Positions 1 to 53,242 of a stretch of 53,242 bases of DNA are shown here, piece by piece. A model generated the notes under the pieces. That model made no database searches, was not told the DNA's origin, and worked only from the letters and a program-made list of their open reading frames with translations. A program made the position numbers and the translations under genes. Each line of letters opens with the position of its first letter. Within the stretch, counting starts at the first letter, position 1. This DNA comes from Escherichia phage CF2: sequence record KY608966. One strand, written 5' to 3'.

Positions 1-304
1 AAAAAAATTTACGCCGGCGAAAAATAATAAAAAACCGGATTGATAAATAAATCTGTAGACGTTTACACGACCTTTATATAGATGTTATAATAACTATCTA
101 AAGTCCAGCAAAGGTATTGTAATGAATATACAACAGGAAGTACAAGCTGAATTTGATTATGTTGATGGCATGTTGTATCGTAAACATAGCCACGGTAACG
201 TCAAGCAAGGCGATAAATTTGGTACCGTAGTACCAGCAGGATACATTGAAGGCTTTTTCAAAAATAAGAAGACGTCTTTGCACGTTCTTGTCTGGCAATG
301 GCAC
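1..304. repeat. Direct terminal redundancy, left copy (identical to 52939-53242)
   Basis: Exact match of window start to window end (offset 52938); carries a promoter and the first 183 nt of the HNH gene. Confidence 0.9.
62..91 (+). promoter_or_regulatory. sigma70-type promoter (TTTACA-N18-TATAAT) upstream of HNH endonuclease gene
   Basis: Near-consensus -35 and -10 hexamers about 30 nt upstream of the ATG at 122. Confidence 0.5.
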
Positions 305-622
305 AATGGTGAAATACCGGAAGGTTATGTAGTAGACCACAAGGACCGCAATAAACTCAATTGTAAAATTGATAACTTACGCCTTGCTACAGCTAGCCAG
401 AATCAAGCTAATCGTGGGGTTAATTATAATAGTACAACAGGCGTCAAAGGTTTGCAGGTAACAACACAGCGTGGTTATACTTATTATGCTGCTAAGATAA
501 CTGTCAACGGTAAAAGATTGAGAAAAACCTTTAAATATACGGAAGAAGGCAAAGAATTAGCTATTGCCTGGCTTCAAGAACAACGTCAAAAATTACACGG
601 AGAATTTGCTTGTGATAACTAG
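122..622 (+). CDS. HNH homing endonuclease with AP2-like DNA-binding region
   Basis: 166-aa ORF; motif DHKDRNKLNCKIDNLRLATASQNQAN typical of the HNH_3 family. Confidence 0.8.
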   Translation: MNIQQEVQAEFDYVDGMLYRKHSHGNVKQGDKFGTVVPAGYIEGFFKNKKTSLHVLVWQWHNGEIPEGYVVDHKDRNKLNCKIDNLRLATASQNQANRGVNYNSTTGVKGLQVTTQRGYTYYAAKITVNGKRLRKTFKYTEEGKELAIAWLQEQRQKLHGEFACDN

Positions 623-662
623 AGCGTCAATTAGAGCGAAAGGACAGAACTTTGAGCGCAAA

Positions 663-1052
663 ATGGCTAAGAAGTTCAATAGCTCGTTTGGATTAACTGT
701 TGAGCGCAATCTTCAACAGTCTATTAATGGCGGGGATGACTTGCTGGGTGTACCGTTTTTCAGTGTTGAACTGAAGAAGCACAATACTAAGTCTATCGGA
801 ACATGGTGGAGACAGTGTGCGGCATCGGCAAAGGCTCAGAACAAGATGCCAGTGCTTATATACGAACTACCAAGAAAACAGCCTACCGTGGTGATGAATA
901 AGGCTGATGTGATTGACTGTTTTCCAAGTGGCACGACTTTTAACGAGGCATCGAACCGCCTCTTTGTGGGTCTGGTAGAATTAACATGGGAACAATTTTG
1001 CCGGGTCTACAACTATTACGTTGCGCCCGGCACTCAATATCACGTCAATTAA
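663..1052 (+). CDS. Putative VRR-NUC-like PD-(D/E)xK nuclease
   Basis: ORF 564-1052 is called from a TTG; first ATG at 663; motif GGDDLLGVPFFSVELKK resembles the VRR-NUC PDL...fvEvK signature. Confidence 0.45.
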   Translation: MAKKFNSSFGLTVERNLQQSINGGDDLLGVPFFSVELKKHNTKSIGTWWRQCAASAKAQNKMPVLIYELPRKQPTVVMNKADVIDCFPSGTTFNEASNRLFVGLVELTWEQFCRVYNYYVAPGTQYHVN

Positions 1053-1234
1053 TCTTGTTTCAGCTCGTTACAAATAACACGCTGATTTTTGGCGGGGATA
1101 ATACCAAGATTCAGTAGGGTGTATGGACTATCAGCGACGCATTGTTCAACGGTAGTCCATTCAGGTTTGGATTCAACAATTTCGTAATTGCAGTCGTGAG
1201 TTGCTATACATGTTGCCAGGATTAAGCCAATCAC
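1049..1234 (-). CDS. Hypothetical small early protein (61 aa)
   Basis: ORF track; GTG start overlaps the stop of the upstream gene (GTGA). Confidence 0.5.
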   Translation of the reverse strand: MIGLILATCIATHDCNYEIVESKPEWTTVEQCVADSPYTLLNLGIIPAKNQRVICNELKQD

Positions 1235-1410
1235 AAGTAATCTCCATCAACCAGAAACTCAAACAATTGGTTGTAAACGTTGCAACCTTTAGCGAAAGAG
1301 CTTTCAGCAGGTTTACCGTCGCGGACAATCATCATATACTCACCGCCATGGATGTCCACCCAGTATTGCATGCCACCTTTGACCGGATTACGTTGCAGAA
1401 ATTTAAACAT
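1231..1410 (-). CDS. Hypothetical small early protein (59 aa, MFKFLQRNPVKGG...)
   Basis: Hand-translated; below the ORF-track length cutoff; ATG overlaps upstream stop as TAATG; SD-like GGAGTCAGGAG upstream. Confidence 0.45.
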   Translation of the reverse strand: MFKFLQRNPVKGGMQYWVDIHGGEYMMIVRDGKPAESSFAKGCNVYNQLFEFLVDGDYL

Positions 1411-1655
1411 TATTTACTCCTGACTCCAAGTTTATTCAATAGCCACACTGTCATGTCAACCCAGGTTAACGGTACAGTTTTCGGGGGTTGATAATCCCAG
1501 CAGCTTGCAGTTCTTTGTATTTCTGCTTGGCGCCGCTCCGCTTCGCGTAATACCGCATCGTCAGAAGTGCCGGCAGAAAAAAGATCGGTAACACCAGATA
1601 AATCGCGTTGATTAACACGTCGAGCAATGTCATATAAATCATCCTTAGAAAACAT
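1410..1655 (-). CDS. Hypothetical early protein (81 aa); an alternative embedded frame exists
   Basis: 81-codon ORF, stop coupled to next gene via TAATG; no obvious SD; overlapping frame 1466-1633 has a better SD. Confidence 0.4.
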   Translation of the reverse strand: MFSKDDLYDIARRVNQRDLSGVTDLFSAGTSDDAVLREAERRQAEIQRTASCWDYQPPKTVPLTWVDMTVWLLNKLGVRSK

Positions 1656-1770
1656 AAGCCAATACCATAAGAATTATCAGAAAGATCCCAACCAGCTTCC
1701 TCATAGCCCGACCTTCAGCATATGCAGGATTCACAACAGAATACTCAACAACATGTTTACAGCGGACCAT
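1645..1770 (-). CDS. Hypothetical small membrane protein (41 aa, MVRCKHVVEYS...LVGIFLIILMVLAYVF)
   Basis: Hand-translated; GGAGG 5 nt upstream of ATG; C-terminal hydrophobic helix. Confidence 0.35.
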   Translation of the reverse strand: MVRCKHVVEYSVVNPAYAEGRAMRKLVGIFLIILMVLAYVF

Positions 1771-1831
1771 AAGGCCTCCACTTGTGGGTTAATTCAATCA
1801 TGAGGACTTTTGGCAAATCCTCATTGTTGAA

Positions 1832-2032
1832 TCACTCAATCATTATCTGTACTACTATTATACACTCTTTATTGAAGCGGGTAAACACCTTTCCACCATT
1901 GGTGCGTTTAGCTCCGGACTTTAGAGCTGACTGGCACCAGACATGCCACTCCTCAACTGTCAAGAATTTTTGCTCAGCTTTGGGTGGTAGTCCATTGGCA
2001 AGGTCTACCGTAGTAAATTTGACTAGTGGCAT
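1832..2032 (-). CDS. Hypothetical early protein
   Basis: ORF track; ATG overlaps upstream stop (TGATG). Confidence 0.5.
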   Translation of the reverse strand: MPLVKFTTVDLANGLPPKAEQKFLTVEEWHVWCQSALKSGAKRTNGGKVFTRFNKECIIVVQIMIE

Positions 2033-2421
2033 CACTTGACCTCAAATTTTGACTCGTCATATTCCGGATCAGTCACGTCCCGGGTCGCACAATTTTTGAT
2101 TGCATCCCAGTAACGTTGGGCATCATCGCCATCGACATAAACTGTCCAGTGGCCGTAACCACCTTCAAATCTGTCCCAGGCTTGTTCCCAGACTTTGCCA
2201 TCTTCCAGCTTGTACCAAGTTGGACGACTGTCAAACTCGCGGATTGGATGGTACCCCATCAAAGGATTCATCAGGTCAATAATGTCTTCCCGACTAATCT
2301 CCTGGTTCTCCCACAACACCGTCATGAATTGCTCAAACTTGAAGGCGTTTGGCAGAATTTTGATGACTTCACCATCACAATATACGGTATAGGTGCCATC
2401 TTCGCATTTTGCACTGTACAT
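2032..2421 (-). CDS. Hypothetical early protein (129 aa from internal ATG)
   Basis: ORF track 2032-2454; internal ATG at 2421 is preceded by AGGAGAGAGAAAC; the upstream ATG lies inside the conserved leader element. Confidence 0.6.
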   Translation of the reverse strand: MYSAKCEDGTYTVYCDGEVIKILPNAFKFEQFMTVLWENQEISREDIIDLMNPLMGYHPIREFDSRPTWYKLEDGKVWEQAWDRFEGGYGHWTVYVDGDDAQRYWDAIKNCATRDVTDPEYDESKFEVK

Positions 2422-2440
2422 GTTTCTCTCTCCTATTGAT

Positions 2441-2492
2441 ATAATTTCAATCATGAACTATCACAACTTTGGATAGTTCATTGTTGAAACTA
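2441..2492 (-). promoter_or_regulatory. Conserved early-operon stem-loop/leader element, copy a
   Basis: 10-bp arms ATGAACTATC/GATAGTTCAT flanked by TTTCAA/TTGAAA, followed on the mRNA strand by GATTGAAATTAT and SD AGGAGAGA. Confidence 0.4.
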
Positions 2493-2663
2493 TACTAACT
2501 TTGTTGCGATCTGAATTGTCAGCCGGAAGTCTTCCATCAAGTTATCAAACTCTTTGGAACCGCCAACCGCATCAGATATTTGGTCTTTCACAATTTGGGC
2601 ATTTGATTCCAGTAATTCAATCAGGTGCGCCAATTCGTCTTCAGTCAATTTCAGATCTTTCAT
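2490..2663 (-). CDS. Hypothetical small acidic early protein (57 aa)
   Basis: ATG at 2663 with SD GGTGGA; overlaps upstream stop. Confidence 0.55.
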   Translation of the reverse strand: MKDLKLTEDELAHLIELLESNAQIVKDQISDAVGGSKEFDNLMEDFRLTIQIATKLV

Positions 2664-2917
2664 AATGCATCCACCCAAGCCATAACTTTTGCCAGTCTTA
2701 CAACGTCTTCATGGTCCCGCTCGCCATCAGAAAATTCGCTGGCGATGATACCCATAATTGACGCCAGATTCATGTTGATGATGTAGGCGTGTTGGCGCAC
2801 TTCATCAATTCCTGAATCTATCACCAGTTCCGCAAATTCTTGTGAACCTTCATCCCATTCAGCCCAATACTGCTCAGCATAAAAGTCCAGTTCTTTTTTC
2901 ATCTCAATATCAGTCAT
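2660..2917 (-). CDS. Hypothetical acidic early protein (85 aa)
   Basis: ORF track; SD GAGGAG upstream of ATG. Confidence 0.6.
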   Translation of the reverse strand: MTDIEMKKELDFYAEQYWAEWDEGSQEFAELVIDSGIDEVRQHAYIINMNLASIMGIIASEFSDGERDHEDVVRLAKVMAWVDAL

Positions 2918-2922
2918 TTTGA

Positions 2923-3078
2923 TTACTCCTCAGAACCTGAAAATTTGTCGTCAATGGCTTCAACAATATAATCAAGAGTTGAAGTGTGAGAACTATCAGA
3001 AAAAGTGCCCATCTTCTCTAACTCAATCATCATATCCCGCAAGGCCATCGCCTGGTCTTTGGTCAGTTTGATTTTAAG
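2923..3078 (-). CDS. Hypothetical small early protein (51 aa from internal ATG)
   Basis: ORF track 2923-3123 starts at GTG inside hairpin; ATG at 3078 follows AGGAGAGAAAC. Confidence 0.5.
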   Translation of the reverse strand, partial: LKIKLTKDQAMALRDMMIELEKMGTFSDSSHTSTLDYIVEAIDDKFSGSEE

Positions 3079-3102
3079 CATGTTTCTCTCCTGTTGATTG
3101 TG

Positions 3103-3150
3103 AATAATTTCAATTGATGGCACTACTTGAGTGCCATCTCAAAAATTACT
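3103..3150 (-). promoter_or_regulatory. Conserved early-operon stem-loop/leader element, copy b
   Basis: 9-bp arms GATGGCACT/AGTGCCATC; followed on the mRNA strand by AATTGAAATTATT and SD AGGAGAGA. Confidence 0.4.
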
Positions 3151-3718
3151 CTTCAGTAGTTTCTTGTTCTTCAATTTCAGGTTTTTCTTCAGCTTCAGGT
3201 TTTTTGCCTGTTACTGATTTGCCGTCAGTCACTTTACCAGATTTTACATCATTACGGTAGTATGACATATATGACTGGATAACACGTTTTGCTCTAATAT
3301 CATCCGCTTCCATTCCGCAAGCTTTCATCGCATCAGCGAGTGCCAATTTGGAATCTTCTTTATCCATCAAGTTGTAATCTTTGAACACCAGATAGCAAGT
3401 ATCTTTAGTTGATGGACCAGATGACGATTTGCGAGAGCCACCAGCAGATGCTCGTGTTGTCGCAACTTTGACTTCTTCAACTTCCAGTTGGTTCAGCTCG
3501 TCAAACAAAGCCTTCACCAGCACTTCTTTAGAGTCTTTGACACTTACAGAACTTTCATCATTAAGCGACTTAATCATCTTAATGATCTGGTTATTGGCAA
3601 AGTACTGAAGACTATCCATCTGCACTACAATAGTGCCAAGACTTTCAGTAGTCAGACCAGATTTCACAGACTCGACAGAAAAAGCGGAAGTCAGGTAAAC
3701 GTAGTTGATAGTTGTCAT
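3146..3718 (-). CDS. Hypothetical early protein (190 aa) with acidic Glu/Lys-rich C-terminus
   Basis: ORF track; SD GAGGA upstream of ATG. Confidence 0.65.
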   Translation of the reverse strand: MTTINYVYLTSAFSVESVKSGLTTESLGTIVVQMDSLQYFANNQIIKMIKSLNDESSVSVKDSKEVLVKALFDELNQLEVEEVKVATTRASAGGSRKSSSGPSTKDTCYLVFKDYNLMDKEDSKLALADAMKACGMEADDIRAKRVIQSYMSYYRNDVKSGKVTDGKSVTGKKPEAEEKPEIEEQETTEE

Positions 3719-3769
3719 TTGATGTATCCTCGTTGATAGAATTTTTGATAGGTGTCAATCCTTGACAAG

Positions 3770-3815
3770 TAATTCCAATCATGACAACTTTTATCAAGTT
3801 GTCATTGTTGGAAAT
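3770..3815 (-). promoter_or_regulatory. Conserved early-operon stem-loop/leader element, copy c
   Basis: 10-bp arms ATGACAACTT/AAGTTGTCAT flanked by TTTCCAACA and GATTGGAATTA. Confidence 0.4.
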
Positions 3816-4117
3816 TACTTCGCGCTTGCGTTTTCAACAGCTTGTACGACTTTCAACAAATGCCTGAAGTCATCATGATAAACTTCATTAAAGCCATCTG
3901 CCGCAAAGTTTTCGCCAATTAAGATCAGTCTTTCGCGGACCAAGTCAATCAAGAGTTTATTGTCAGTTATTTCAGCACCTGTAATAAGTTCAACAAATAA
4001 TTGCTGTACGTTATCATAACAGATGTTGCTTTCAATACACACTTGGCGCATGTCTTCAACTATTGACATGATTGTGACTTGCATTTCTACGTCAGAAGTG
4101 ATGTTATTCAGTTTCAT
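3815..4117 (-). CDS. Hypothetical acidic early protein (100 aa)
   Basis: ORF track; SD AAGG upstream; first gene of the leftward early operon. Confidence 0.65.
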   Translation of the reverse strand: MKLNNITSDVEMQVTIMSIVEDMRQVCIESNICYDNVQQLFVELITGAEITDNKLLIDLVRERLILIGENFAADGFNEVYHDDFRHLLKVVQAVENASAK

Positions 4118-4140
4118 AATAGTTACCTTTGTATTAGTTT

Positions 4141-4190
4141 CCAGGCGTGACTACTGATACCAATAGTCACTGGTTGAAACTATTACTAGT
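4141..4190 (-). promoter_or_regulatory. Early-operon 5' leader stem-loop, copy d
   Basis: Imperfect palindrome CCAGGCGTGACTACTGATACCAATAGTCACTGG, then TTGAAACTATTACT as in copy a. Confidence 0.35.
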
Positions 4191-4333
4191 GTTACTATCA
4201 ACAAGAAACATGTTACCAAATTGTTAAAGAGCGGTCTGGTACTATTCGACCAGGTAAAGTTATTATTTGCGCATCTTGACGACACGCGCCAGACAAGACG
4301 CTTGACACATTCATCATTCGTCTTGATGTAATA

Positions 4334-4362
4334 ATTATAGGCCAGTCAATCAATGTTGTACA
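4334..4362 (-). promoter_or_regulatory. Candidate leftward early promoter (TGTACA-N17-TATAAT)
   Basis: Reverse complement of ATTATA at 4334-4339 and TGTACA at 4357-4362; weak -35. Confidence 0.3.
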
Positions 4363-4459
4363 TAAAAGAATTGCAAGTTTATGCAAGTTTTTAGAAATGA
4401 TAATCACTTGCGATTGAGAGTGGTTCTCGTATGCAATTGATATAGTTTCACATGTAATT

Positions 4460-4534
4460 ACTCAATCCAAAATGGTCGGCAGGGGTTATAATCACATAGG
4501 GGTGCCACTTAAAGGAGCCGGCGAAATTATTTCT
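4460..4534. repeat. ~75-bp dispersed repeat, copy R1
   Basis: TCAATCCAAAATGGTCGGCAGGGG...AGGGGTGCCAC...AGGAGCCGGCGAAATT; shares many anchored blocks with R2. Confidence 0.6.
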
Positions 4535-4596
4535 AAAAATATAATTTCAATCTGAATTATAGACGCTTTGTGTTATAACGGCCGAAGTAGTTCATA

Positions 4597-4650
4597 CGGT
4601 AATTGTATCAATCGCAATAGTTACCAGGGTAATCGTTTCAATCGAAATAG
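4597..4650. repeat. Imperfect tandem repeat (2 x 24 bp)
   Basis: CGGTAATTGTATCAATCGCAATAG vs GGGTAATCGTTTCAATCGAAATAG, 20/24 identical, 6 bp apart. Confidence 0.6.
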
Positions 4651-4709
4651 GTGCGGCGGGGGGTAATTTCGCAGGGGTGCTACCTGCCAGGAGCCAGCGG
4701 AATTTTTTT
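4633..4709. repeat. ~75-bp dispersed repeat, copy R2
   Basis: TTCAATCGAAATAGGTGCGGCGGGGGG...AGGGGTGCTAC...AGGAGCCAGCGGAATTTTTTT. Confidence 0.6.
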
Positions 4710-4858
4710 ATTTTTTGGTATTTTCTCCTTATCAGGACCAATCATCATCAGAGTAACACGGCAGGAGCTAACCTTTTGCTTATCACAATAATAAGTGAAG
4801 CCCCTCTAAAATTTTTTTATATTTTTCGGAAATTGTGTAGACACTCACTAAAAAGTGG

Positions 4859-4887
4859 TGTACTTTCTCTCCTCCACGCGCTATCAT
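4859..4887 (+). promoter_or_regulatory. Candidate rightward promoter (TGTACT-N17-TATCAT)
   Basis: Hexamers at the expected spacing ~50 nt upstream of the first rightward gene. Confidence 0.3.
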
Positions 4888-4937
4888 TAATGTGAATCAT
4901 CAAACGGCCTCACGGTCTCCTACTTGTGGGTAACATT

Positions 4938-5423
4938 ATGAAAATTGTTCAATTAGAGCCATATCCGCCTCAATTGGCTATCGTTTGCAGCGAAAAAGAG
5001 CACGAAGAGCTCCAAAAACTGATGGATTTGCCTGATTTTGGCAACTGGAATGACCGGGAAACACGTAATGCATCTACCTTTACATTCTCTCGCGTTAACT
5101 ATCCGTACCTGTTAATCGTCGTCGAACTGTACCACCCGGACGACCTGAAGTACAACACCATTTCCCACGAAGGCATTCACGTAATGTCATCGCTGATGAA
5201 CTATGTAGGGCTTAAATACGACCCAGAAAACGATGAATGGTACGCATATCAGCATGATTTCATCGTAAATGCCATTTGTAAGGCCCATGACGAGTATATA
5301 GAGCGCCAAAAAACGCCAAAAACTAAGCCAAAAATCGAAACAGGTAACCATCCTGCTATACTGCCACAAGACGTAATGAACTCGCTTTTGACTGACACTA
5401 CTGGGGACTTTTTAGGTGATTAA
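4938..5423 (+). CDS. Hypothetical protein with HExxH motif (possible zincin-like metallopeptidase)
   Basis: ORF 4926-5423 starts at GTG; first ATG at 4938; motif ISHEGIHVM. Confidence 0.55.
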   Translation: MKIVQLEPYPPQLAIVCSEKEHEELQKLMDLPDFGNWNDRETRNASTFTFSRVNYPYLLIVVELYHPDDLKYNTISHEGIHVMSSLMNYVGLKYDPENDEWYAYQHDFIVNAICKAHDEYIERQKTPKTKPKIETGNHPAILPQDVMNSLLTDTTGDFLGD

Positions 5424-7776: not shown

Positions 7777-8067
7777 ATGGCAAAACCGAAAAAAACCCGT
7801 GAGGCAACAGAAGAGCTGTTGGCCACTATGCGACGTATCCAACTGGACCCGTTGGAAGTTATGCAACGAGCTATCATCCTTGCTGAACGTGAAGACGACT
7901 ATAAAGCAATGATGGATGGTGCGCTTGGTGTTATGCCGTACATGTATCCTAAGCTGAAAGAGTCCGTTGTTAAAGCTGACATCGACCAGAACTTGTCTGG
8001 TAACGGCGTCAACCTGAATATTACAATCGGTGACCAGAAAGTGGTAGACGTTACTGAGGAAGAGTAA
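7777..8067 (+). CDS. Putative terminase small subunit
   Basis: 96-aa ORF immediately upstream of the large terminase; assignment is positional. Confidence 0.4.
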   Translation: MAKPKKTREATEELLATMRRIQLDPLEVMQRAIILAEREDDYKAMMDGALGVMPYMYPKLKESVVKADIDQNLSGNGVNLNITIGDQKVVDVTEEE

Positions 8068-8070
8068 TAA

Positions 8071-9519
8071 ATGAACCTTGACTTTCACCTGCATGACAGA
8101 CAAGGTGCCGCTCTGCAGTCTCAGGCAACTGAGATTCTGTACGGTGGCGCCGCTGGTGGTGGTAAGTCTCACCTTATGCGTGTAATGTCAATTATCATGT
8201 GCTGCATGATACCTGACTTGCAGATTTACCTTTTCCGCCGAAACTATAACGACCTTACGGCTAACCACATGGTTGGCCCCACAAGTTATCCTGCCTTGCT
8301 GGATGGTATGTGCAAAGCTGGCAAGTGCAAGATTAACTACTCGAGCAACACGATTAAATTCTGGAACGGTGCGAACATCAAACTCTGTCACCTCCAGTAC
8401 GAAAAAGATATTTATACCTACCAGGGTGCGGAGATTCACGTTCTGCTGATGGATGAGCTTACTCACTTCACAGAAACGATGTACCGCTTCTTGCGTAACC
8501 GTGTCCGACTCGGTGCTCTTAAAGTCCCTGAGAACTTTTTCCGGCCACTACCACTCATCTTTTGTGGGTCAAACCCCGGTGGTGTTGGTCACAACTGGGT
8601 TAAGCGTACTTTCGTAACTGCTGCTCCTCCGATGAAAATCGTTAAGCAGGATAAACGCGAAGGCGGTATGGCTCGTCAGTACATTCCGGCTAAGATGACT
8701 GATAACCCTACGCTGATGGAAAACGACCCTGACTACGGTGACCGTCTTGAAGGTCTTGGCGACCCGGCGCTTGTTGCGGCGATGAAAGAGGGTGACTGGG
8801 ATATTGTTGCAGGTGGTGCACTAGACGACGTATGGTCAACTAAGTGCATTCTGCCGCGTATGCGTATTCCTAAAGGCTGGACTATCGAACGTTCTCTTGA
8901 CTGGGGATCTACTCACCCGTTCTCTGTTGGTATCTGGGCTATTGCAAATGGTGCCTCGCTTACAGACGACGAAGGCAATGAGTACTTTATTCCGCGTGGT
9001 TCAATTATACGTATAGCTGAATGGTATGGGTGCTCTGAAAAAGAAGCTAACAGGGGTATTAAGCTATCTGCTGCCGAAGTCGCTCAAGGTGTTCTTCGCC
9101 TACAGGAAAATCTGCAGGCTGGTGGCTGGATTCAAAGCAACGTTAATCCTGGTCCGGCAGATAGTCAGATTTATGCGTGCAAAGAAAAAGACGTTGAGAC
9201 TATCGCGAAAAAAATGGAAGACGAAGGCGTAACCTGGGTCAAGGCCGACAAGTCGCAAGGTTCGAGAATAAATGGCTTAGAGCTATTCCGTCAGCTTCTG
9301 AAAAATGTTAAGATGGACGAAACGGAAAAGCCGGGCATTTATTTCATGGAAAACTGTCCAGCAGCCATAAACACGTTGCCGGTTCTGCCGCGTGACAAGA
9401 ACAACACGGAAGATGTCGACACGAACTCTGAAGACCACGTATACGATGATTGTCGTTACATGGTGTTGCGTGGCATCAACCGTTATACTACCAAGCTCAA
9501 AATAAATATGGGACGGTAA
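8071..9519 (+). CDS. terL: Terminase large subunit
   Basis: 482 aa; Walker A GGAAGGGKS near N-terminus; position before portal. Confidence 0.85.
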   Translation: MNLDFHLHDRQGAALQSQATEILYGGAAGGGKSHLMRVMSIIMCCMIPDLQIYLFRRNYNDLTANHMVGPTSYPALLDGMCKAGKCKINYSSNTIKFWNGANIKLCHLQYEKDIYTYQGAEIHVLLMDELTHFTETMYRFLRNRVRLGALKVPENFFRPLPLIFCGSNPGGVGHNWVKRTFVTAAPPMKIVKQDKREGGMARQYIPAKMTDNPTLMENDPDYGDRLEGLGDPALVAAMKEGDWDIVAGGALDDVWSTKCILPRMRIPKGWTIERSLDWGSTHPFSVGIWAIANGASLTDDEGNEYFIPRGSIIRIAEWYGCSEKEANRGIKLSAAEVAQGVLRLQENLQAGGWIQSNVNPGPADSQIYACKEKDVETIAKKMEDEGVTWVKADKSQGSRINGLELFRQLLKNVKMDETEKPGIYFMENCPAAINTLPVLPRDKNNTEDVDTNSEDHVYDDCRYMVLRGINRYTTKLKINMGR

Positions 9520-52650: not shown

Positions 52651-52813
52651 AGCTTATTTTACAAACTGATTAATATTTAAACTATAATTAAATATATGGG
52701 CTATAAGAGTATGATTTTATTACTCTTTTACTAACCATAATATATGGGCTCCTTATAAAAGATTAAGGGGGTAAAAAAGGGGGATACAAGACCCGGATAA
52801 AAGGGGGTATATA

Positions 52814-52856
52814 TTTATTTATTATTATTATTATTATTATATATTATTAATTATAT
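52814..52856. repeat. AT-rich tract with (ATT)n microsatellite
   Basis: TTTATTTATTATTATTATTATTATTAT within a ~290-bp AT-rich non-coding stretch next to the terminal repeat. Confidence 0.7.
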
Positions 52857-52938
52857 TAGAAGTAATAAAAACAGCTACTTAGAGGCGTCTATATGTATGA
52901 TCCGGTTTATCTCTTTATTAATATCAGAACCGGATGAA

Positions 52939-53242
52939 AAAAAAATTTACGCCGGCGAAAAATAATAAAAAACCGGATTGATAAATAAATCTGTAGACGT
53001 TTACACGACCTTTATATAGATGTTATAATAACTATCTAAAGTCCAGCAAAGGTATTGTAATGAATATACAACAGGAAGTACAAGCTGAATTTGATTATGT
53101 TGATGGCATGTTGTATCGTAAACATAGCCACGGTAACGTCAAGCAAGGCGATAAATTTGGTACCGTAGTACCAGCAGGATACATTGAAGGCTTTTTCAAA
53201 AATAAGAAGACGTCTTTGCACGTTCTTGTCTGGCAATGGCAC
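52939..53242. repeat. Direct terminal redundancy, right copy (identical to 1-304)
   Basis: Exact duplicate of the window start; cut by the window end. Confidence 0.9.
53060..53242 (+). CDS. Second copy of the 5' end of the HNH endonuclease gene within the terminal repeat (truncated by window end)
   Basis: Identical to 122-304. Confidence 0.5.
   Translation, partial: MNIQQEVQAEFDYVDGMLYRKHSHGNVKQGDKFGTVVPAGYIEGFFKNKKTSLHVLVWQWH

What the first reader, a model, noticed from the sequence alone, without database searches (positions are those of the whole stretch)
4120..4925. An ~800-bp repeat-rich non-coding control region between the divergent early operons
No convincing gene lies here (two ORF-track entries look spurious). 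It contains two ~75-bp related elements (4460-4534 and 4633-4709) sharing ordered blocks (TCAATC.AAA.TNGGT.CGGC.GGGG ... AGGGGTGC.AC ... AGGAGCC.GCG.AATT), an imperfect 24-bp tandem repeat (4597-4650), two direct CTTGAC motifs (4276-4307) and T-rich tracts. Candidate functions are iterons of an origin, binding sites for a phage regulator, or small RNA genes.
Basis: seen in the sequence. Interest (0 to 1): 0.55.

Follow-up and report, generated by a model that had tools for sequence, protein, structure and literature searches.

The report
Phage genome-end signal, duplicated in tandem
This non-coding stretch of a Salmonella/E. coli myophage holds the right edge of a 4.7-kb terminal repeat (one physical end of the packaged DNA), and its two related 75-bp elements are most likely DNA signals for cutting and packaging the genome, not small RNA genes.

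Summary
The window is a circularly closed assembly of a Rosemountvirus-like myophage. The 820-bp gap (4118-4937) is truly non-coding and lies between divergent early operons.

The two related elements are real: E1 (4455-4545) and E2 (4631-4722) share 55 of 80 aligned positions (z about 8.6). Both occur in every relative examined, across several lineages.

In three relatives with determined termini (fHy-Eco03, vB_SalM_Sz, AEV23), the long direct terminal repeat ends inside E2. In window coordinates that is ...CAGGAGCC|AGCGGAATTTTTTT at 4695|4696. The repeat starts at ...TTTACGCC|GGCGAAAAA (15|16), so it spans 16-4695.

- The left site, read on the opposite strand, is the third-best genome-wide match to the E profile, after E1 and E2 themselves.
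- E1 carries the 10-mer GCCGGCGAAA, which occurs only there and at the left boundary.
- Five 15-bp-phased boxes (4583-4657) precede E2.
- E1 and E2 show no conserved or unusually stable fold, no Rfam match, and no DnaA or IHF boxes.

Best reading: a packaging and end-formation signal of a long-repeat phage, embedded among early promoters. The boundary assignment is strong. Terminase reading of the modules, and E1's role, are inferred. Moderately interesting; a new member of a known kind.

The parts
16..4695 (.). Inferred long direct terminal repeat (4680 bp), present once in this collapsed circular assembly
   Evidence: The boundaries were transferred by exact homology from vB_SalM_Sz (4263-bp exact repeat in the deposited record) and from fHy-Eco03 (3699 bp by PhageTerm plus restriction digest). 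The S144 homologous boundaries are 3915 bp apart, the same length reported by PhageTerm for its close relative AEV23.
1..42 (+). Left boundary site: A-tract, TTTACGCC|GGCGAAAAATAATAAAAAA, then CCGGATTG. The cut is at 15|16, and the same sequence recurs at 52939-52980 (cut 52953|52954).
   Evidence: It is homologous to position 1 of the fHy-Eco03 and Sz records. The core sCC|GGCG is conserved in all eight lineages compared; only Sz has ACGCT|GGCG. On the minus strand it is the third-best genome-wide hit of the E profile, E=0.12.
4148..4171 (.). Palindrome GTGACTA-N10-TAGTCAC just upstream of the leftward operon start; an operator or a 5'-UTR hairpin
   Evidence: It is conserved in all relatives. 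The fHy-Eco03, SE1_KM and SOI901 lineages carry a compensatory change (GAGACTA...TAGTCTC).
4334..4362 (-). Leftward early promoter candidate, TGTACA-17-TATAAT
   Evidence: It matches the consensus at 10 of 12 positions. The TTGTACA and -10 region are conserved in the 13-genome alignment.
4403..4446 (+). Highly conserved block CACTTGCGATTGAGAGTGGTTCTCGTATGCAATTGATATAGTT. It includes an extended -10-like TGATATAGT and is the upstream part of the E1 unit.
   Evidence: ATTGATATAGT is invariant in all 14 genomes. It aligns with the box region in front of E2.
4455..4545 (+). E1: a G-rich body (4470-4519) plus the core AGGAGCC|GGCGAAATT (4513-4528; predicted cut 4519|4520) plus an A/T-rich tail
   Evidence: It is present in all 14 genomes and in the metagenomic and Logan loci that cover the site. 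GCCGGCGAAA occurs only here and at the left boundary in 52.9 kb, against 0.07 expected. It resembles the left site in direct orientation, 119 of 184. One Logan contig starts exactly at GGCGAAATT.
4583..4657 (+). Array of five 15-nt-phased boxes, consensus (C/G)GnA(A/G)TnG(T/G)T, directly in front of E2's G-run
   Evidence: Autocorrelation gives lag 15 z=4.5 and lag 30 z=7.1. The register is conserved in Loughboroughvirus, KE25 and SOI901 and is weaker in fHy-Eco03 and SE1_KM.
4631..4722 (+). E2: a G-rich body (4644-4695), the core AGGAGCC|AGCGGAATT (4689-4704; repeat boundary at 4695|4696) and an outward T-tract (4703-4718)
   Evidence: The Sz repeat ends ...CCTGCCAGGAGCC and fHy-Eco03's ends ...TTTAAGCCCC at the homologous column. 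The LPSEYT record ends 7 nt past the cut. The reverse complement of the left site matches E2 at 122 of 184 positions over eight lineages, against 80 of 184 for the forward reading.
4808..4887 (+). Rightward early promoter region: A/T-rich UP-like tract, TAGACA (4838-4843), a 17-nt spacer, TACTTT (4861-4866), and an alternative -10 TATCAT (4882-4887)
   Evidence: TAGACA and TAAAAAGTGGTGTACTTT are invariant in 14 genomes. It lies outside the terminal repeat.
4938..5423 (+). First gene of the rightward operon (161 aa; called 'putative Ku protein' in the S144 record)
   Evidence: It matches PHROG 1365 (unknown function) with no Pfam hit and no meaningful PDB match (five chance-level hits). The Ku label comes from the S144 annotation only.
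7777..8067 (+). Candidate small terminase subunit (96 aa), 3 nt upstream of the large subunit gene
   Evidence: The support is its position, 64-81% conservation across lineages, and the name 'Terminase small subunit' given by one automated source. The AlphaFold model has low confidence (pLDDT 58.6): three helices followed by beta strands. No family match was found.
8071..9519 (+). Large terminase subunit
   Evidence: It matches PHROG 979 and PHROG 2 (terminase large subunit) and weakly matches Pfam Terminase_6N. It is 95.6% identical to the AEV23 protein.

Best explanation
The gap is the junction between the long direct terminal repeat (16-4695) and the unique part of the genome. It carries the DNA signals that make the right-hand end of the packaged chromosome, interleaved with divergent early promoters.

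Shown:
- The right repeat boundary, and hence one physical end of virion DNA, falls between CC and AGC at 4695|4696 inside E2.
- The left boundary at 15|16 has the same GC-rich quasi-palindromic core (sCC|rGCG), with an A/T-tract on the side facing away from the repeat. The two ends therefore carry one signal in inverted orientation.

Inferred:
- Terminase (large subunit 8071-9519, with a specificity partner, candidate 7777-8067) docks on the five phased boxes and the G-rich body just inside the repeat, then cuts at the E2 core.
- The inverted left site is cut the same way.
- A concatemer junction holds only one repeat copy. The 4.7 kb between the two cuts must therefore be duplicated, or alternate genomes are lost. 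Duplication could work by nicks on opposite strands at the two inverted sites followed by strand-displacement synthesis, as in the classical Watson/T7 scheme.
- E1 is a second copy of body plus core, 176 bp inside the repeat. Its core equals the left site in direct orientation. It probably acts as an auxiliary binding or cutting module. Its exact role is open.
For: Termini:
- fHy-Eco03's annotated left terminal repeat (1-3699, from PhageTerm plus restriction digest) ends inside the E2 homologue and starts at the left-site homologue.
- The vB_SalM_Sz record carries an exact 4263-bp repeat with the same two boundaries.
- The S144 homologous sites are 3915 bp apart, the length PhageTerm gave for its relative AEV23.
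- S144 restriction mapping places a physical end in this gap.
- The LPSEYT record breaks 7 nt from the cut.

Signal symmetry:
- The E profile's third-best genome hit, after E1 and E2, is the left boundary on the minus strand.
- The reverse complement of the left site matches E2 at 122 of 184 positions, against 80 of 184 for the forward reading, in all eight lineages. Some variants are lineage-specific and shared: Sz has CC|AGCG at both sites, and fHy-Eco03 has CC|GGCAA at both.
- GCCGGCGAAA is unique to the left site and E1. fHy-Eco03's left site and E1 share the GGCGCAA variant.

Constraint at the DNA level:
- E1, E2 and the box register are kept across Rosemountvirus, Loughboroughvirus, the fHy-Eco03 and SE1_KM lineage, KE25, SOI901 and metagenomic relatives.
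- The neighbouring protein drops to 37% identity over the same range.
- TerL and the TerS candidate are likewise highly conserved.

Against RNA.
Against: - No reads exist for this phage, so the boundary is transferred by homology.
- How the Sz termini were determined is not documented in what I could read.
- No protein-DNA interaction was tested.
- The TerS assignment is weak (pLDDT 58.6, no family hit).
- The E2 core is more degenerate than the E1 core (AGCGGA, GACGGA, GGCAAA), which is odd for the site that is actually cut.
- Much of the similarity between the reversed left site and E2 comes from the A/T tracts.
- The body and boxes could serve another protein, such as a regulator or initiator, and merely sit next to the cut.
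- Contig ends in public assemblies are mixed: one falls exactly at E1, two near 4638 and one near 4790.
Confidence: 0.6

Rival explanations
1. The phased boxes and the E bodies are binding sites for a phage or host transcription regulator that controls the divergent early promoters, for example the early-to-middle switch. Their position next to the repeat boundary would then be incidental.
For: The gap holds several conserved promoter-like elements pointing both ways. A conserved palindrome with a compensatory change lies at 4148-4171. Arrays in 15-nt register are typical protein-binding arrays.
Against: The array and E2 lie about 180-250 nt upstream of the rightward promoter and about 250-350 nt from the leftward one. 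The cut falls at a fixed place inside E2 in three lineages. The core is repeated, inverted, at the other repeat boundary 4.7 kb away, where there is no comparable promoter pair. No regulator gene has been identified.
Confidence: 0.15
2. The region is a replication origin. The five phased boxes would be iterons for an initiator, and the adjacent T-rich tract would be the unwinding element.
For: It has the iteron-plus-A/T-tract architecture. The cumulative GC-skew minimum lies at about 3-5 kb. It is promoter-rich, as transcription-activated origins are.
Against: The skew minimum coincides with the switch of coding strand, so it is not independent evidence. There are no DnaA or IHF boxes, and no initiator gene is recognised nearby. 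A more origin-like element lies elsewhere: G5TA boxes plus about 50 nt of pure A/T at 52767-52860, next to the primase gene. The origin idea also does not explain why the cut core recurs at the left boundary.
Confidence: 0.12
3. E1 and E2 are small RNA genes or terminator-like RNA elements transcribed rightwards from the -10-like elements in front of them.
For: The invariant extended -10-like TGATATAGT sits about 10 nt before E1. Both elements end in T-rich runs. E1 has a 6-bp closing stem GTCGGC...GCCGGC in most genomes.
Against: No Rfam match comes near a gathering score. RNAalifold finds no structure for E2 or for E1 and E2 together, and the E1 stem is broken in the fHy-Eco03-type lineages. 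Folding-energy z-scores run from -0.4 to +1.2 as RNA on both strands. No terminator-like site is predicted in E1 or E2. The -10-like element before E2 is not conserved.
Confidence: 0.06

Closest known systems
T7/T3 concatemer-junction packaging signals (pacB recognition element with the pacCL and pacCR cleavage sites). Cited from my own knowledge of Chung & Hinkle 1990 and Hashimoto & Fujisawa 1992; not retrieved here.
   Same: Genomes are unit-length with exact direct terminal repeats. Cuts at both repeat boundaries are sequence-specific. There is an asymmetric extra recognition element near one end. The single repeat copy at a junction must be duplicated.
   Different: The repeat is 160-230 bp in T7 and T3, against 3.7-4.7 kb here. 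T7 processing depends on phage RNA polymerase, and no phage RNA polymerase is reported for this group (PMC7432712). There is no sequence similarity. The tandem duplicated module and the 15-nt box array are not T7 features as far as I know.
Long-terminal-repeat phages (T5, SPO1-like Bacillus phages)
   Same: They have kilobase-scale repeats carrying small early genes, with exact position-specific ends. In B. cereus SPO1-like phages the two termini share an inverted heptamer (5'-AGGTTTT...AAAACCT-3'), which those authors took as the terminase recognition or cleavage site (PMC5418689). That parallels the inverted core plus A/T-tract seen here.
   Different: The phages and terminal sequences are unrelated. 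No duplicated internal copy or phased box array is reported in that paper.
Lambda cos (cosQ-cosN-cosB). Cited from my own knowledge.
   Same: A quasi-palindromic nicking site is flanked on one side by several repeated protein-binding sites for the small terminase subunit, and a separate upstream element is needed for the terminating cut. E1 could play a cosQ-like role.
   Different: Lambda makes 12-nt cohesive ends, not a terminal repeat. Lambda uses IHF, and no IHF consensus site occurs here. There is no sequence similarity.
Published terminal repeats of relatives: fHy-Eco03 (PMC8145870), AEV23 (PMC12918118), and the physical end mapped in S144 (PMC7432712)
   Same: The boundaries are the same and are directly homologous to 15|16 and 4695|4696.
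   Different: In the passages retrieved from those papers only repeat lengths or an approximate end position are given. The E1/E2 modules, box array, shared core and inverted arrangement did not appear there or in the library searches I ran.

Membership tests
Terminal-repeat boundary / terminase end-formation signal of a DTR phage | A physical end of virion DNA maps to the site | tested here: met
   Met by homology, not for this phage itself. fHy-Eco03 termini come from PhageTerm plus digest; Sz has an exact 4263-bp repeat in its record; the AEV23 repeat length of 3915 bp equals the S144 site spacing; the S144 restriction map places an end here.
Terminal-repeat boundary / terminase end-formation signal of a DTR phage | A related sequence occurs at both repeat boundaries | tested here: met
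   Both boundaries share the core sCC|rGCG plus an outward A/T-tract. The left site on the minus strand is the third-best genome-wide hit of the E profile. Identity is 122 of 184 inverted against 80 of 184 direct.
Terminal-repeat boundary / terminase end-formation signal of a DTR phage | The signal is conserved together with the packaging enzyme across relatives | tested here: met
   E1, E2 and the left core are present in all lineages. TerL is 95.6% identical and the TerS candidate 64-81% identical across lineages.
Terminal-repeat boundary / terminase end-formation signal of a DTR phage | Terminase binds and cleaves the sequence | not testable with these tools
   This needs biochemistry or genetics.
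Structured small RNA / cis-regulatory RNA | A conserved secondary structure supported by covariation or unusual stability | tested here: not met
   RNAalifold gives about 0 kcal/mol for E2 and for E1 and E2 together. Shuffle z-scores run from -0.4 to +1.2.
Structured small RNA / cis-regulatory RNA | A match to a described RNA family | tested here: not met
   The best Rfam hits score 15-21 bits against gathering scores of 36-249, and none lies over E1 or E2.
Structured small RNA / cis-regulatory RNA | Its own promoter and terminator | tested here: inconclusive
   A conserved -10-like TGATATAGT precedes E1, but the element before E2 is not conserved. No terminator-like site was predicted.
Iteron-type replication origin | Three or more direct repeats at regular spacing next to an A/T-rich unwinding element | tested here: met
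   Five boxes stand in 15-nt register. A T-tract lies at 4703-4718.
Iteron-type replication origin | Initiator or host factor sites (DnaA, IHF) or an adjacent initiator gene | tested here: not met
   No DnaA or IHF consensus site occurs in 4100-4940. The neighbouring genes have no initiator-like family match.
Iteron-type replication origin | Replication initiates here | not testable with these tools
   GC skew is confounded by gene orientation.

The most novel reading that the evidence does not exclude
E1 and E2 together form a complete, nested short-repeat junction. E1 would be a left-type cut site (its core is identical to the left boundary, in direct orientation) and E2 a right-type cut site (inverted), 176 bp apart, which is the size of a T7 or T3 terminal repeat. 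The phage could then make two chromosome forms: a long 4.7-kb repeat starting from the distal left site, or a short 176-bp repeat starting from E1. Alternatively, the long repeat may have evolved from an ancestral short-repeat junction by recruiting a new left site 4.5 kb upstream, which captured the early-gene block into the repeat. Three hints point this way. One public contig begins exactly at E1's GGCGAAATT. The S144 authors inferred 'short direct repeat ends' in this gap. E1's core is better conserved than E2's.
Probability: 0.15. Interest if true: 0.65.

Novelty: new member of a known kind. Interest (0 to 1): 0.45.

Why it matters
- Annotation. About 50 deposited genomes of this phage group are opened at arbitrary points, and most lack the repeat. 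The cut sites given here let the true ends and the 3.7-4.7-kb repeat be placed by sequence alone. That changes genome length, gene copy number (all early genes in 16-4695 are diploid in the virion) and the order in which DNA enters the cell.
- Packaging biology. Signals for long-repeat phages are poorly defined. A compact, conserved, testable signal set in easily grown Salmonella and E. coli phages used for biocontrol would allow direct tests. The set comprises a core, an outward A/T-tract, a G-rich body, a phased box array and a duplicated module. The tests would address how kilobase repeats are cut and duplicated.
- Scanning lesson. Repeat-rich 'control regions' in circularly assembled phage genomes may be collapsed chromosome ends.

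Tried and rejected
- tRNA or tmRNA: none in the window.
- Rfam at a permissive threshold: only chance-level snoRNA- and miRNA-like hits.
- Structured RNA: rejected after RNAalifold on 11-23 distinct copies and shuffle controls.
- Coding: rejected for the three gap ORFs.
- 24-bp tandem repeat: replaced by 15/30-nt phasing.
- CTTGAC pair: present but in a non-conserved, replaced segment.
- Further E copies elsewhere: none. Only the left-site core appears as a weak inverted hit.
- G-quadruplex idea: dropped, because the second G-run of E1 is CCGG in several lineages.
- Host-factor sites (IHF, DnaA, Fis-like): none in the region.
- 'Ku-like' label of the adjacent gene: not reproduced by Pfam, NCBIfam or PDB sequence searches.
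- TerS candidate: the structure prediction was too uncertain (pLDDT 58.6) to justify a fold search.
- Termini of a more distant TerL relative (Providencia phage Kokobel2): the record is opened inside a gene and was uninformative.
- Literature search for the T7 pacB signal: returned PacBio papers only.
- Contig ends in public assemblies as a proxy for physical ends: too few and mixed.
- AEV23's own record could not be used to verify its 3915-bp repeat, because the record carries extra redundancy.
Full report
**What the window is.** The 806-bp finding matches about 60 phage records. It is 95-97.5% identical to Rosemountvirus-type Salmonella and E. coli myophages (SPLA2, ciri, BP63, UPF_BP2). It is about 73% identical to Loughboroughvirus (ZCSE2, S144, AEV23) and 71-77% over parts to fHy-Eco03, SE1_KM, KE25 and Erwinia phage SOI901. 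The window's first 304 bases repeat its last 304, so it is a circularly closed assembly with a unit length of 52,938 bp.

**Checking the observation.**
- Gene content. The gap between the leftward ORF 3815-4117 and the rightward gene starting at ATG 4938 contains only short mechanical ORFs. When translated and compared with 12 relatives, they are interrupted by stops or align only in part outside the closest strains. The flanking 161-aa gene stays intact down to 37% identity. The gap is therefore non-coding, and parts of it are better conserved than the neighbouring protein.
- E1 and E2. The two elements share 55 of 80 aligned positions, with a score of 25 against -12 +/- 4.3 for shuffles. The similarity extends upstream to units of about 125 nt. 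A profile of 28 copies finds exactly two full copies in the genome.
- The tandem repeat. The '24-bp tandem repeat' is mis-sized. The 75 nt at 4583-4657 form five boxes in strict 15-nt register, with lag 15 z=4.5, lag 30 z=7.1 and lag 24 z=1.0.
- The CTTGAC motifs. They exist at 4275-4280 and 4301-4306 but lie in the one segment of the gap that is replaced by unrelated sequence even in close relatives.

**The decisive context: a chromosome end.**
- fHy-Eco03. Its record annotates a 'left terminal repeat region' 1-3699, and the match to the finding spans 3359-3919. Read at the sequence level, that repeat ends ...TTTAAGCCCC|GGCAAATTTTTT, inside the homologue of E2. It begins GGCGCAAAAAG..., preceded in the right-hand copy by ...GTTATTGCC. 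The paper says the termini were found with PhageTerm and confirmed by restriction digestion (PMC8145870).
- vB_SalM_Sz. Its record (57,020 bp, linear) carries an exact 4263-bp repeat. It starts GGCGAAAAAAAT... and ends ...CCTGCCAGGAGCC, and the next unique bases are AGCGGAATTTTTTTATTTTTT. That right-hand junction sequence is identical to window 4695|4696.
- S144 and AEV23. In S144 the two homologous sites are 3915 bp apart. That is the repeat length PhageTerm gave for its close relative AEV23 (PMC12918118).
- Restriction mapping. [quoted passage not shown]
- LPSEYT. Its record breaks 7 nt past the same cut.

Transferred to the window, the repeat is 16-4695 (4680 bp). It is longer than in relatives, at least partly because of an HNH endonuclease gene at 122-622 that Sz lacks.

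**Anatomy of the signals.**

*Cores.* The three sites read as follows.
- Left boundary: ...GAAAAAAAAATTTACGCC|GGCGAAAAATAATAAAAAACCGGATTG
- E1: ...AGGAGCC|GGCGAAATTATTTCTAAAAAT
- E2: ...AGGAGCC|AGCGGAATTTTTTTATTTTTT

The 10-mer GCCGGCGAAA occurs only twice in the genome, at the left boundary and in E1, against 0.07 expected. The left core sCC|GGCG is conserved in all eight lineages compared; only Sz has ACGCT|GGCG.

*Orientation.* After E1 and E2 themselves, the best genome-wide match of the E profile is the left boundary on the minus strand (E=0.12). Anchored at the cut, the reverse complement of the left site matches E2 at 122 of 184 positions over eight lineages. The forward reading gives 80 of 184, and the inverted reading wins in every lineage. 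Some variants are lineage-specific and shared: Sz has CC|AGCG at both sites, and fHy-Eco03 has CC|GGCAA at both. The repeat is thus bracketed by one signal in inverted orientation: a GC-rich quasi-palindromic core with an A/T-tract pointing away from the repeat. E1 instead resembles the left site in direct orientation (119 of 184). fHy-Eco03's left site and E1 share the GGCGCAA variant.

*Right-end extras.* Only the right end has the 45-nt G-rich body (GGGGG-TAAT...CAC...GGTG...). The body occurs twice, once in E1 and once in E2. The five-box array occurs only in front of E2.

*G-runs.* Runs of five G are depleted genome-wide, 11 against about 40 expected. Five of the 11 lie beside the two boundaries.

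**Conservation.** E1 and E2 both occur, in the same order and spacing, in all 14 GenBank genomes aligned. Every Logan or ENA locus that spans the whole gap also carries both; three contigs that break inside the gap carry E2 only or neither. TerL is 95.6% identical between genera. The 96-aa protein encoded just upstream of TerL is 64-81% identical across lineages.

- RNA. No tRNA or tmRNA is present and no Rfam hit comes near threshold. RNAalifold finds only a 6-bp closing stem in E1, broken in the fHy-Eco03-type lineages, and nothing for E2 or for both together. Folding energies do not differ from shuffles as RNA or DNA on either strand. No terminator-like site is predicted.
- Origin. The boxes plus T-tract resemble iterons plus an unwinding element, and the cumulative GC skew is lowest at about 3-5 kb. 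That is also where the coding strand switches. There are no DnaA or IHF sites.
- Regulator sites. This is not excluded. The gap does hold conserved promoter-like elements: leftward TGTACA-17-TATAAT at 4362-4334, and rightward TAGACA-17-TACTTT at 4838-4866 with an UP-like A/T tract. It also holds a palindrome with a compensatory change at 4148-4171.

**How it most likely works.**

Shown: the right physical end of the chromosome lies inside E2, and the left end carries the same core in inverted orientation.

Inferred:
- Terminase, guided by a specificity subunit (candidate 7777-8067), docks on the box array and G-rich body and cuts at the E2 core. The candidate rests on its position, its conservation, one automated 'terminase small subunit' label and a low-confidence model of three helices plus beta strands.
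- The inverted left site is cut equivalently.
- A concatemer junction holds only one copy of the repeat. The 4.7 kb must therefore be duplicated, or alternate genomes are sacrificed. Inverted sites are what a strand-specific nickase would need for the opposite-strand nicks of the Watson/T7 duplication scheme. That scheme is cited from my own knowledge of the T7 literature.
- The complex recognition elements sit only at the right end. This fits either T7-style initiation at the right end with leftward packaging, or a lambda cosQ-like termination signal. I cannot tell which.
- E1's role is the weakest part. It may be an auxiliary docking site, a backup cut site or a remnant.

**Comparison with known systems.** See the Closest known systems and Membership tests section. 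The nearest functional analogues are three.
- The T7/T3 pacB and pacC signals.
- The inverted terminal heptamers of SPO1-like Bacillus phages (PMC5418689).
- Lambda cos.

There is no sequence homology to any of them. The terminal repeat itself is already published for relatives. The signal anatomy did not turn up in the passages retrieved from those papers or in my library searches.

**Caveats.**
- No reads for this phage were available.
- The method behind the Sz termini is unknown to me.
- A/T-tract composition inflates the inverted-site similarity.
- Contig ends in public assemblies are ambiguous: one falls exactly at the E1 cut, two near 4638 and one near 4790.

**Verdict.** Interest is moderate at 0.45, and the finding is a new member of a known kind.

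Noticed in passing
window 1-304 and 52939-53242: The window's two ends are identical over 304 nt. It is a circularly closed assembly in which the terminal repeat is collapsed to one copy.
   Followed up: yes
L030 (Logan ERR13361961_610), equivalent to window 4520 onward: A 1025-nt public contig carrying the exact 161-aa protein begins precisely at E1's predicted cut (GGCGAAATTATTT...). This is possibly a real left-type DNA end at E1, or possibly chance: one of four contig ends seen in the gap.
   Followed up: partly
L029 and L034, equivalent to window ~4637-4638: Two contigs from different samples and lineages both break within 1 nt of each other at the start of box 5 and E2, about 58 nt inside the repeat boundary. 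This is unexplained.
   Followed up: no
window 52767-52860: About 95-190 nt upstream of the left boundary and just after the primase gene lie three G5(T)A boxes followed by about 50 nt of pure A/T, including (ATT)n. This is conserved in AEV23. It looks more like an origin or unwinding element than anything in the finding.
   Followed up: no
window 52900-52980: The left cut is bracketed by CCGGAT-type motifs: ATCCGGTTT at 52900, AACCGGAT at 52929 and AACCGGATTG at 52971. As single-stranded DNA the region folds better than shuffles (z=-2.5). The downstream (G/C)(C/T)CGGATTG is conserved in nearly all lineages compared; SE1_KM has GTCGGTTTT.
   Followed up: partly
window 4148-4171: The palindrome GTGACTA-N10-TAGTCAC, immediately upstream of the leftward operon, has a compensatory double change (GAGACTA/TAGTCTC) in the fHy-Eco03, SE1_KM and SOI901 lineages. 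It is an operator or a 5'-UTR hairpin.
   Followed up: partly
window 122-622: An HNH endonuclease gene (Pfam HNH_3, E=3e-20) lies inside the terminal repeat and is absent from the homologous place in Sz. It is probably a homing endonuclease insertion, and it contributes to this phage's longer repeat.
   Followed up: partly
window 4236-4313: This segment is unrelated to the corresponding segment of even close relatives such as yarpen and zoltan, while both flanks align. It is a small mosaic replacement inside the gap. Both versions carry two TTGAC motifs about 25 nt apart.
   Followed up: no
whole window: Runs of five G (both strands) are about fourfold depleted, 11 against about 40 expected. 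The fHy-Eco03 paper reports DNA resistant to most restriction enzymes and suspects a modification. A link to a guanine modification is conceivable but untested.
   Followed up: no
window 4938-5423: The gene next to the chromosome end is labelled 'putative Ku protein' in the S144 record. Pfam, NCBIfam, PHROGs and PDB sequence searches here give no support for that label. It is only 37% identical between lineages, whereas the non-coding gap is about 73% identical.
   Followed up: partly
hit lists: A record named 'Listeria phage 220426122051' is 87.5% identical to this enterobacterial phage region. Copies of the 96-aa protein are also filed under Bacillus thuringiensis, Salmonella and E. coli assemblies. 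These are probably host mislabelling or phage carry-over in bacterial assemblies.
   Followed up: no
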